From: a virus
Lineage: Duplodnaviria; Heunggongvirae; Uroviricota; Caudoviricetes
Virus record (IMG/VR): IMGVR_UViG_641736116_000027
Reading direction: 5' to 3' (one strand)
DNA length: 36,109 bases
The translations under genes and the position numbers were made by a program. The notes beneath the pieces were generated by a model. It searched no databases. It was given only the letters and a program-made list of their open reading frames with translations, and was not told the DNA's origin. Within the stretch, counting starts at the first letter, position 1; each line of letters opens with the position of its first letter. Shown piece after piece: positions 5,252-6,774 of this stretch.

Positions 5252-6774
5252 ATGAAAAAAGCCATAGCATATATGCGATTTTCATCACCAGGTCAGATGT
5301 CTGGCGACTCATTAAACCGACAGAGAAGACTTATTGCTGAATGGTTAAAGGTAAATAGTGATTATTATCTTGATACCATAACATATGAAGATTTAGGATT
5401 AAGTGCATTCAAAGGAAAGCATGCACAATCAGGAGCTTTTTCGGAATTTTTAGATGCTATAGAGCATGGTTATATATTGCCAGGAACTACATTGTTAGTT
5501 GAAAGTCTGGACAGACTTTCAAGAGAAAAAGTCGGTGAAGCGATTGAACGTCTGAAATTGATTTTGAATCACGGTATTGATGTTATAACTCTTTGCGACA
5601 ATACAGTCTATAATATTGACTCTTTGAATGAGCCATATTCATTAATAAAAGCCATACTTATAGCACAAAGGGCAAATGAAGAAAGCGAGATAAAGTCAAG
5701 TCGGGTTAAATTATCATGGAAGAAAAAACGGCAGGATGCACTGGAATCAGGTACGATTATGACGGCGTCTTGTCCGAGATGGCTCTCCTTAGATGACAAA
5801 AGAACGGCTTTTGTTCCAGACCCCGACAGGGTGAAAACTATTGAGCTAATTTTTAAACTCAGGATGGAAAGGCGCTCATTGAATGCAATAGCCAAGTATT
5901 TAAATGATCATGCTGTAAAGAATTTCTCAGGAAAAGAAAGTGCATGGGGGCCTTCTGTAATTGAAAAATTATTAGCGAATAAAGCTCTGATAGGTATATG
6001 CGTACCTTCATATCGTGCAAGAGGGAAAGGGATAAGTGAAATCGCTGGCTATTATCCCAGAGTCATATCAGATGATTTGTTTTACGCTGTACAGGAAATT
6101 CGGTTGGCACCTTTTGGTATTAGCAATAGTAGCAAGAATCCTATGCTAATAAATCTACTTCGAACAGTTATGAAGTGTGAGGCTTGTGGTAATACCATGA
6201 TTGTTCATGCGGTATCTGGAAGTTTGCATGGCTATTATGTTTGTCCGATGAGAAGATTACATCGATGTGACAGGCCATCAATAAAGAGAGATTTGGTTGA
6301 TTATAATATCATTAATGAATTTTTAATTGTAGCAAAATTCAACCAGTTGAAAACAAGAAAGATGCTAATGAAACTTTAGAGTTAAAAATTATTGAGCTTC
6401 AGATGAAAATTAATAATTTAATCGTTGCATTGTCTGTCGCGCCTGAAGTTACCGCTATAGCAGAGAAAATAAGACTATTAGATAAGGAATTACGAAGAGC
6501 TTTGGTATCATTGAAAACTTTGAAGAGTAAAGGTGTAAATTCATTCAGTGATTTTTATGCTATTGACTTAACCAGTAAAAATGGACGAGAGTTATGCCGT
6601 ACACTTGCCTATAAAATATTCGAAAAAATCATAATTAATACGGATAATAAAACCTGTGATATCTATTTTATGAATGGCATTGTTTTTAAACACTATCCTT
6701 TAATGAAAGTAATATCCGCCCAGCAGGCGATAAGTGCTCTCAAATATATGGTTGATGGTGAGGTTTATTTTTGA
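5252..6774 (+). pseudogene. ybcK: large serine recombinase (ybcK-like), split by a frameshift near 6350-6370
   Basis: The N-terminal resolvase domain has the YMRFSSPGQ nucleophile motif and LLVESLDRLSR, and there is a Cys-rich zinc-ribbon region (CEACGN...YYVCP...HRCD). Two adjacent ORFs (5252-6379 in frame 2, 6403-6774 in frame 1) overlap in reading potential at 6319-6379 around an A-rich tract (6351-6360). Confidence 0.6.

What the first reader, a model, noticed from the sequence alone, without database searches (positions are those of the whole stretch)
6319..6403. Frameshift in the serine recombinase within an A-rich tract
The recombinase reading frame ends at 6379 (frame 2) and continues in frame 1 from 6319 onward. 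Both frames are open across 6319-6379, and the region contains the A-rich run AAACAAGAAA (6351-6360). A single-base indel in this run would restore one ~507-aa protein. This is either a real inactivating mutation, a sequencing or assembly error, or much less likely a recoding site.
Basis: seen in the sequence. Interest (0 to 1): 0.4.

Follow-up and report, generated by a model that had tools for sequence, protein, structure and literature searches.

The report
Four-base deletion scar in prophage recombinase
The prophage recombinase gene ybcK in this E. coli O157:H7 window is a genuine pseudogene broken by a 4-base deletion, probably a scar left when an IS629 element cut itself out, which makes it an ordinary, already annotated lesion and not a recoding signal.

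Summary
ybcK reads in frame 2 to a TAG at 6377-6379 and continues in frame 1 from 6319 to 6774. Both frames are open across the overlap.

The proposed cause is wrong. The A-rich run 6351-6360 is identical in intact alleles. The lesion is a 4-bp deletion (TTGC) between 6319 and 6320. Re-inserting TTGC recreates the intact 508-aa protein exactly.

The deletion is real. The same allele is in 22 complete O157:H7 genomes, including TW14359, EC4115, SS17 and SS52. RefSeq marks it "frameshifted". The exact 375-aa product occurs on 498 public contigs. About 1,395 of 1,419 ybcK-bearing complete genomes have the uninterrupted gene. So do viable lambdoid phages.

Six related genomes carry IS629 inserted exactly at GAA^TTGC, next to the missing bases. 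An independent IS629 marker groups 21 deletion genomes with 5 of these IS-bearing genomes and with no intact-allele genome. The deletion is therefore most likely an IS629 excision scar, inferred at about 0.6.

The break removes the C-terminal 152 residues, including the predicted coiled coil. Clade relatives keep an intact paralogue in a second prophage. I found no canonical slippery heptamer and no stimulatory structure, so there is no sign of programmed frameshifting. Interest is low.

The parts
5252..6319 (+). ybcK codons 1-356 in the native frame (frame 2). They cover the resolvase catalytic domain, the recombinase domain and the zinc ribbon (Cys309, 312, 331, 339).
   Evidence: Pfam: Resolvase 4-161, Recombinase 191-284, Zn_ribbon_recom 302-356. 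The 356 N-terminal residues are identical to the intact WP_000709077.1 allele.
6319..6320 (+). Junction of the 4-bp deletion. The intact allele reads GAA-TTGC-TTTTT and the window reads GAA-TTTTT. This is also the exact point where IS629 sits in six related genomes (target duplication GAA = 6317-6319).
   Evidence: Alignment A1. F7386 locus L003 reads ...AATGAA[TGAACCGCC...GGCGGTTCA]GAATTGCTTTTT. Six genomes carry this insertion.
6320..6379 (+). Out-of-frame tail of the truncated product: 19 missense codons (FLIVAKFNQLKTRKMLMKL) and TAG. It contains the A-rich run 6351-6360, which is not mutated.
6322..6774 (+). Stranded 3' part of ybcK in frame 1, encoding native residues 359-508 plus the stop. 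It covers the predicted coiled-coil helices and the C-terminal end of the zinc-ribbon domain. The mechanical ORF 6403-6774 (123 aa) lies inside it.
   Evidence: The 150 C-terminal residues are identical to the intact allele. The region is colinear with the RD-ZD-CC part of A118 integrase 4KIS, a weak match at E=0.0047. There is no Pfam hit on this fragment alone.
3324..4634 (+). A resident IS629/IS1203 copy (1311 bp in the BLAST match; orfA 3378-3704, orfB 3701-4591) between ren and emrE, with 3-bp target duplication GTA. It is the same IS family as the element proposed to have left the scar.
   Evidence: It is 100% identical to the IS copies in L003 and L004. This insertion site is found in none of 5,426 complete genomes.

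Best explanation
The window is the cryptic lambdoid prophage next to icd in an E. coli O157:H7 clade-8-type strain. Its ybcK gene, a large serine recombinase, is a true pseudogene.

Shown: a 4-bp deletion (TTGC) at 6319^6320 shifts the frame after codon 356. The result is a 375-aa product with 19 missense residues, and the last 150 codons are stranded in frame 1.

Inferred (about 0.6): the deletion is the scar of an imprecise IS629 excision. IS629 first inserted at GAA^TTGC, a state still present in six sister genomes. In one branch it was then removed together with one GAA copy and the adjacent TTGC, 1,317 bp in total. This is the kind of IS-adjacent small deletion described for transposase plus IEE-promoted excision in O157:H7.

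Inferred consequence: the truncated protein keeps the catalytic, recombinase and zinc-ribbon parts. It lacks the coiled coil that large serine recombinases need for synapsis and directionality, so it is probably recombination-dead. Relatives such as TW14359 keep an intact, 99.4%-identical ybcK in a second prophage. The loss is therefore probably neutral.

The confidence of 0.9 applies to the core claim, a real lineage-specific 4-bp deletion that makes a pseudogene with no recoding. The excision-scar origin alone is about 0.6.
For: 1. Lesion. Alignment to intact alleles shows a single 4-bp gap and no other change within 281 nt. Re-inserting TTGC reproduces the 508-aa protein exactly.

2. The allele is real. 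Twenty-two complete genomes show the deletion-length match. Of 1,419 genomes, 21 match the 70-nt junction at 99% or more, and 1,395 carry the +4 allele. RefSeq annotates it as 'recombinase family protein, frameshifted' in TW14359 and 7386WT. The exact 375-aa product is on 498 contigs. Strain 7386 was assembled from PacBio, Nanopore and Illumina data.

3. The single ORF is the norm. Intact 508-aa YbcK is in 12 Escherichia phage records. Distant homologues align across the break.

4. IS link. IS629 with target duplication GAA sits immediately left of TTGC in F7386, and six genomes in all share that junction: F7386, 147, 148, 149, Balcarce_14.2 and 9.1_Anguil. Chance coincidence within +/-3 bp in a 1,527-bp gene is about 0.005.

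5. Same sublineage. An unrelated IS629 insertion in gene P of the second prophage is shared as a single-piece match by exactly 26 genomes. These are 21 deletion genomes plus 5 IS-in-ybcK genomes. No intact-allele O157 genome that has that second prophage carries it.

6. Literature. [quoted passage not shown] IEE enhances precise excision and other deletions (bioRxiv 10.1101/2023.06.07.543989).

7. Domains. Pfam hits end at residue 356-357. The protein is colinear with the A118 integrase RD-ZD-CC region.

8. Intact paralogue. TW14359 has an intact copy at 2923628-2925154, differing at 3 residues.
Against: The excision origin is circumstantial. No excision was observed, and the iee gene was not checked in these genomes.

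The junction GAA|TTTTT has at most 1 nt of microhomology in the IS-bearing allele. In the intact allele the same 4-bp loss could arise by simple slippage between TT repeats (TTGC-TT).

The marker is not perfectly congruent. 8_140198 (deletion allele) and 9.1_Anguil (IS allele) lack the gene-P IS629 marker.

The 12-kb flanks carry no informative SNPs that would order the alleles. Whether the deletion clade is nested within the IS-bearing strains is therefore untested.

The functional claim about coiled-coil loss rests on a weak PDB match (E=0.0047) and on general knowledge of the family. The AlphaFold single-sequence model was unusable, with pLDDT 34.7.
Confidence: 0.9

Rival explanations
1. 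A spontaneous 4-bp deletion by replication slippage in the intact gene, unrelated to IS629. On this view the IS629 insertion at the same nucleotide in sister strains is an independent event, perhaps at a locally favoured target.
For: The intact sequence GAA-TTGC-TTTTT offers a 2-nt TT microhomology that would give the same product. The IS-allele junction has at most 1 nt of microhomology. Two genomes break the marker congruence.
Against: It needs two independent events at the same phosphodiester bond of a 1,527-bp gene, about 0.0007-0.005 by chance. Both would have to occur within one small sublineage in which no sampled member keeps the plain intact allele. IS-adjacent small deletions are a documented product of IS629 excision in O157.
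Confidence: 0.3
2. A sequencing or assembly error in this window, with the real gene intact.
For: No reads are available for the window's own strain. That strain matches no complete genome, because its IS629 at the ren/emrE junction is unique. Some draft contigs are visibly chimeric around this repeat: L010 and L011 contain both junction types.
Against: The identical deletion is in 22 complete genomes and 498 contigs from many laboratories and platforms. The lost bases TTGC are not a homopolymer. PGAP independently flags the gene as frameshifted.
Confidence: 0.02
3. A programmed -1 ribosomal frameshift, or transcriptional slippage, in the 6319-6379 overlap makes a full-length recombinase.
For: The required shift is -1. 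The overlap holds weak single-tRNA slip motifs: A_AAA at 6334-6337, A_AAG at 6358-6361 and T_TTA at 6322-6325. A slip at any of these would give a 507-aa protein differing from native by 2-15 residues. Trace leaky frameshifting cannot be excluded.
Against: There is no X_XXY_YYZ heptamer in frame. The downstream RNA is unremarkable, with z = -1.2. Homopolymer runs are at most 5 nt, too short for polymerase slippage by general knowledge. The two-frame layout is a derived state confined to 21-23 of 1,419 genomes (the 22), while ancestors and phages have a single ORF.
Confidence: 0.01
4. Two naturally separate genes: a short recombinase and an independent 123-aa gene.
For: Some gene callers list 375-aa and 123-aa products side by side.
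Against: Both pieces are identical to one 508-aa protein once TTGC is restored. Distant homologues are colinear across the break. The 123-aa ORF has no family hit and no evident ribosome-binding site by inspection.
Confidence: 0.005

Closest known systems
E. coli K-12 DLP12 prophage gene ybcK (putative large serine recombinase, 508 aa) and its intact O157:H7 alleles WP_000709077.1, WP_000709088.1 and WP_000709082.1
   Same: It is the same gene in the same neighbourhood (ren-emrE-ylcJ-ybcK ... ybcN-ninE-ybcO-rusA-ylcG-Q). DNA identity is above 99% to O157 alleles and 95-99% to most other E. coli. The domain order is identical.
   Different: This copy lacks TTGC after codon 356 and is therefore truncated. 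This prophage also lacks ybcL and ybcM, which follow ybcK in the second prophage of TW14359; by my own recollection they also follow it in DLP12. The function of YbcK itself is unknown. The only phenotype I found is terpene tolerance on overexpression (PMC7181518).
IEE-promoted IS629/IS1203 excision with adjacent small deletions in EHEC O157:H7 (Kusumoto et al. 2011 Nat Commun 2:152, as summarised in PMC9943667, PMC9397093 and bioRxiv 10.1101/2023.06.07.543989)
   Same: An IS629 copy is documented at the exact site in sister genomes. The deletion starts at the IS end and target duplication and removes a few flanking nucleotides. The host lineage is O157:H7, where such excision is frequent.
   Different: Here the event is inferred from natural allele states, not observed. 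The presence of iee in these strains was not checked. The junction microhomology is minimal, at most 1 nt.
Large serine recombinases with solved structures (Listeria phage A118 integrase, PDB 4KIS, 5UDO, 6DNW)
   Same: It has the same order of recombinase domain, zinc ribbon, coiled coil and C-terminal strands. YbcK 167-466 aligns colinearly with chain residues 15-313.
   Different: The similarity is very weak, at E=0.0047. YbcK sits in the ren-nin region of lambdoid phages that already have a tyrosine integrase (window 1-1143), so it is probably not the phage integrase. No att sites are known.

Membership tests
Large serine recombinase (serine integrase type) | N-terminal resolvase/invertase catalytic domain with a serine nucleophile | tested here: met
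   PF00239 at residues 4-161, E=5.8e-19, in the window ORF. The motif YMRFSSPGQ near the N-terminus is seen in the sequence. Which serine is the nucleophile was not determined.
Large serine recombinase (serine integrase type) | Recombinase domain followed by a four-cysteine zinc ribbon | tested here: met
   PF07508 at 191-284 and PF13408 at 302-356, both above the gathering score. Cys309, 312, 331 and 339 all lie upstream of the break.
Large serine recombinase (serine integrase type) | Coiled-coil motif and C-terminal end of the zinc-ribbon domain in the same polypeptide | tested here: not met
   In the window these residues (359-508) are in frame 1, separated from the catalytic part by the frameshift and a TAG. 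In intact alleles they are colinear with the A118 integrase coiled-coil region, but only at E=0.0047.
Large serine recombinase (serine integrase type) | Site-specific recombination activity on defined att or res sites | not testable with these tools
   No substrate sites are known for YbcK. The literature search found no activity assay.
Programmed -1 ribosomal frameshift site | Slippery heptamer X_XXY_YYZ in the zero frame within the overlap | tested here: not met
   None in 6313-6379. Only single-codon slip motifs are present.
Programmed -1 ribosomal frameshift site | Stimulatory downstream RNA structure | tested here: not met
   The fold of 6326-6430 gives -15.3 kcal/mol, z = -1.2, and 25 of 200 shuffles fold as well.
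Programmed -1 ribosomal frameshift site | Two-frame arrangement conserved among homologues | tested here: not met
   About 1,395 of 1,419 genomes and all 12 close phage homologues have one continuous ORF.
IS629 excision-associated deletion (IEE-promoted) | The IS is documented at the same site, with the deletion abutting its end | tested here: met
   IS629 sits at GAA^TTGC in six genomes, and the window lacks exactly TTGC.
IS629 excision-associated deletion (IEE-promoted) | IS-bearing and deleted alleles belong to one lineage descended from the IS-bearing state | tested here: inconclusive
   An independent IS629 marker is shared by 21 deletion and 5 IS-bearing genomes and by no intact-allele genome. 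There are 2 exceptions, and no SNP tree shows nesting.
IS629 excision-associated deletion (IEE-promoted) | iee and an active IS629 transposase are present in the host | not tested
The literature places it on SpLE1 of O157:H7.

The most novel reading that the evidence does not exclude
The 375-aa protein, which has catalytic, recombinase and zinc-ribbon parts but no coiled coil, is still expressed. It forms mixed oligomers with the intact 99.4%-identical YbcK of the second prophage and poisons or re-tunes that enzyme. The scar would then change cross-talk between two prophages instead of being neutral. A milder version is that leaky -1 slippage at A_AAA or A_AAG restores traces of near-native full-length enzyme.
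Probability: 0.04. Interest if true: 0.4.

Novelty: already known. Interest (0 to 1): 0.15.

Why it matters
It matters little for biology at large. It is a lineage-specific pseudogene of an uncharacterised prophage recombinase, and RefSeq already flags it as frameshifted.

Two modest uses remain. First, the TTGC deletion, together with the ybcK::IS629 allele, is a clean marker for a TW14359/EC4115/SS17-type sublineage of clade-8-type O157:H7. Second, if the scar reading holds, this locus shows the before (IS inserted) and after (IS gone, 4 bp lost) states of IS629 excision in wild strains. That would be a convenient substrate for testing IEE-dependent excision products. It also shows that apparent small frameshifts in O157 genomes may be IS footprints and not replication errors.

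Tried and rejected
1. A single-base indel in the A-run 6351-6360. Rejected: the run is invariant between alleles.

2. phmmer against the PDB at default E gave nothing. At E up to 10 there is a weak colinear hit to A118 integrase. I used it only to place the break relative to the coiled coil.

3. AlphaFold on the intact protein without an alignment gave mean pLDDT 34.7 and pTM 0.24. It was unusable and not taken to fold search.

4. I looked for the window's source strain through its unique IS629 junction between ren and emrE. No complete genome has it.

5. I considered that the deletion also occurs in the second-prophage (ybcL/ybcM) context, because draft contigs L006 and L009 show it there. 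Every genome listed matches L006 at 99.6% over a span 4 bp longer than the query, consistent with TTGC being present in that context. Those drafts are therefore more likely short-read chimeras or rare inter-prophage recombinants. L010 and L011 contain both junctions and look like scaffold artefacts.

6. I considered that CDC strain F7386 (IS allele) and strain 7386/RM7386 (deletion allele) might be the same isolate, which would have been a direct before-and-after pair. I dropped this: 7386 is a 2008 Washington lettuce isolate and nothing links it to F7386.

7. I looked for informative SNPs in 12 kb around the gene to order the alleles. Only private SNPs were found.

8. I checked for an RNA structure that could stimulate frameshifting. 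None was found.

Full report
**What is in the sequence.** The window is a lambdoid prophage. Its gene order is integrase (1-1143, minus strand), excisionase, a truncated O gene, P, ren, an IS629/IS1203 copy (3324-4634), emrE, a small ylcJ-like ORF, ybcK, ybcN, ninE, ybcO, rusA, ylcG, Q, and then lysis and structural genes. In complete genomes the same prophage lies next to icd in E. coli O157:H7.

The ybcK reading frame runs from 5252 in frame 2 to TAG at 6377-6379, giving 375 aa. Frame 1 is open from 6319, just after TGA at 6316-6318, and runs to 6774. The run AAACAAGAAA is at 6351-6360.

**What the lesion is.** I aligned 6200-6480 with an intact O157 allele (FDAARGOS_293, ybcK, WP_000709077.1, 508 aa) and with TW14359. 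The only difference is a 4-bp gap. Intact alleles read AATGAA-TTGC-TTTTTAATTG, and the window and TW14359 read AATGAA-TTTTTAATTG. The A-rich run is identical in all three.

Re-inserting TTGC after 6319 reproduces the intact protein exactly. Residues 1-356 are native, 19 missense residues follow before the stop, and frame 1 from 6322 encodes residues 359-508 unchanged.

**Real or artefact.**
- A 1,601-nt query finds 22 complete genomes with the deletion-length match. They include TR01, JEONG-1266, TW14359, EC4115, F8797, SS17, SS52, RM6067W and 7386WT/Nal.
- A 70-nt junction query splits 1,419 ybcK-bearing genomes into 21 at 99% or more, which is the deletion allele, and 1,395 at 90-95%, which is the allele with the extra four bases.
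- RefSeq annotates the gene as a frameshifted pseudogene in TW14359 and 7386WT.
- The exact 375-aa product is recorded on 498 contigs from NCBI and Logan assemblies.
- Strain 7386 is described as clade 8 and was assembled from PacBio, Nanopore and Illumina data (PMC9234449).

A non-homopolymer 4-bp loss seen this often is not a sequencing error. The window's own strain is not among the complete genomes, because its IS629 insertion between ren and emrE is unique. Its reads could not be examined.

**One gene or two.** Intact 508-aa YbcK is encoded by 12 Escherichia phage records, including Lambda_4C10, 4A7, Perceval and Turner. Homologues at 25-30% identity (Burkholderia phage Bcep176 gp53, Pseudomonas phage LPPA36) align without interruption to residues 473-479.

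**What is lost.**
- Pfam places Resolvase at 4-161, Recombinase at 191-284 and the recombinase zinc ribbon at 302-356/357. The 3' fragment alone hits nothing.
- The four zinc-ribbon cysteines (309, 312, 331, 339) lie upstream of the break.
- A weak PDB match (A118 serine integrase, 4KIS/6DNW, E about 0.005) is colinear over YbcK 167-466. It places the break a short way before the segment that aligns with the integrase coiled coil.
- From general knowledge of large serine recombinases, the coiled coil is needed for synapsis and for control of direction. The 375-aa product is therefore most likely inactive in recombination. This step is inferred, not shown.
- The single-sequence AlphaFold model was too poor to use.

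**Where the deletion probably came from.** While looking for the source strain I found that F7386 carries IS629 inside this very ybcK copy. Its sequence reads ...ATTAATGAA[TGAACCGCCCC...GGGGCGGTTCA]GAATTGCTTTTTAATTG. That is an insertion with a 3-bp target duplication GAA, immediately to the left of the TTGC that the window lacks. Six complete genomes share this junction: F7386, 147, 148, 149, Balcarce_14.2 and 9.1_Anguil. If the two events were unrelated, their falling within 3 bp of each other in a 1,527-bp gene has a chance of about 0.005.

I then used an unrelated IS629 insertion as a lineage marker. It lies in gene P of a second prophage of TW14359.
- Its junction is present as a single-piece match in exactly 26 genomes: 21 with the deletion allele and 5 with ybcK::IS629.
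- None of the O157 genomes that keep the plain intact allele carry it, although those genomes do have the second prophage.
- There are two exceptions. 8_140198 has the deletion but no marker, and 9.1_Anguil has the IS allele but no marker.

The IS allele still contains TTGC, so it cannot derive from the deletion allele. The simplest order is intact, then IS629 insertion, then loss of the IS together with GAA and TTGC (1,317 bp).

This is the pattern described for O157:H7. [quoted passage not shown]

I rate this origin at about 0.6. It is inferred from allele distribution only. The junction has at most 1 nt of microhomology. A plain slippage between the TT repeats of the intact allele would give the same product.

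**Recoding.**
- Restoring the frame needs a -1 shift.
- The overlap has no X_XXY_YYZ heptamer. It has only single-codon slip motifs (A_AAA, A_AAG, T_TTA) and homopolymer runs of at most 5 nt.
- The downstream RNA folds no better than shuffled sequence, with z = -1.2.
- The arrangement is a recent derived state.
- Trace leaky slippage would give near-native 507-aa proteins and cannot be excluded. Nothing suggests it is programmed.

**Context and consequence.** TW14359 and its relatives carry a second ybcK in an stx-less Stx-phage-like prophage, together with ybcL and ybcM. That copy is intact and differs at three residues. The icd prophage is already defective: its O gene is truncated, and no immunity region is annotated between xis and O in the same prophage of TW14359 and F7386. 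Loss of this copy is therefore probably neutral. The function of YbcK is unknown. The only phenotype in the literature I found is increased sabinene tolerance on overexpression (PMC7181518).

**Verdict.** This is an ordinary, already annotated pseudogene. The only mildly interesting point is that the frameshift looks like an IS629 excision scar, with the pre-excision allele preserved in sister strains. That would be a new instance of a known process.

Noticed in passing
window 3324-4634: An IS629/IS1203 copy is inserted between ren and emrE with a 3-bp target duplication GTA. None of 5,426 complete E. coli genomes has an IS at this junction, so the window's strain is a distinct member of the deletion-allele lineage. 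RefSeq annotates a programmed frameshift and an 'AL1L pseudoknot' in this IS family, so the genuine recoding site of the window is here (orfA 3378-3704, orfB 3701-4591) and not in ybcK.
   Followed up: partly
L003 5509-6818 (F7386) and five other genomes: IS629 is inserted in ybcK exactly at GAA^TTGC, the nucleotide where the window has its 4-bp deletion.
   Followed up: yes
L014 8060-9586 (TW14359 2923628-2925154): A second, intact ybcK (WP_000709082.1, 3 aa differences) lies in an Stx-phage-like prophage without stx. It is followed by ybcL and ybcM, and an IS629 splits gene P of that prophage. That IS insertion is a marker shared by 26 genomes.
   Followed up: yes
window 5008-7275: This is a low-GC block (36% against 52% for the whole window) that holds ybcK (35.5% GC). 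Compared with the second prophage, it lacks ybcL and ybcM between ybcK and ybcN. It looks like a foreign insert in the ren-nin region.
   Followed up: partly
window 1143-2297: The prophage is defective. Xis is followed directly by an O gene that RefSeq marks as missing its N-terminus, and no repressor/cro/N region is annotated between them in the same prophage of TW14359 and F7386.
   Followed up: no
L006, L009, L010, L011 (draft contigs): Draft assemblies show the deletion allele joined to the ybcL/ybcM context, or both junction types within about 1.2 kb. In every genome listed the ybcL-linked copy matches L006 over a span 4 bp longer, consistent with an intact TTGC. The drafts therefore look like chimeric assemblies across the two near-identical prophage copies, or rare inter-prophage recombinants.
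   Followed up: partly
L013 (7386WT), window-equivalent 3072-3285 and 6166-6190: The 7386WT assembly has clusters of 8 and 3 substitutions relative to the window. 7386Nal is 100% identical to the window over 5200-6800. One of the substitutions (3072 T>C) matches the second prophage copy, which suggests patchy gene conversion or residual long-read errors.
   Followed up: no
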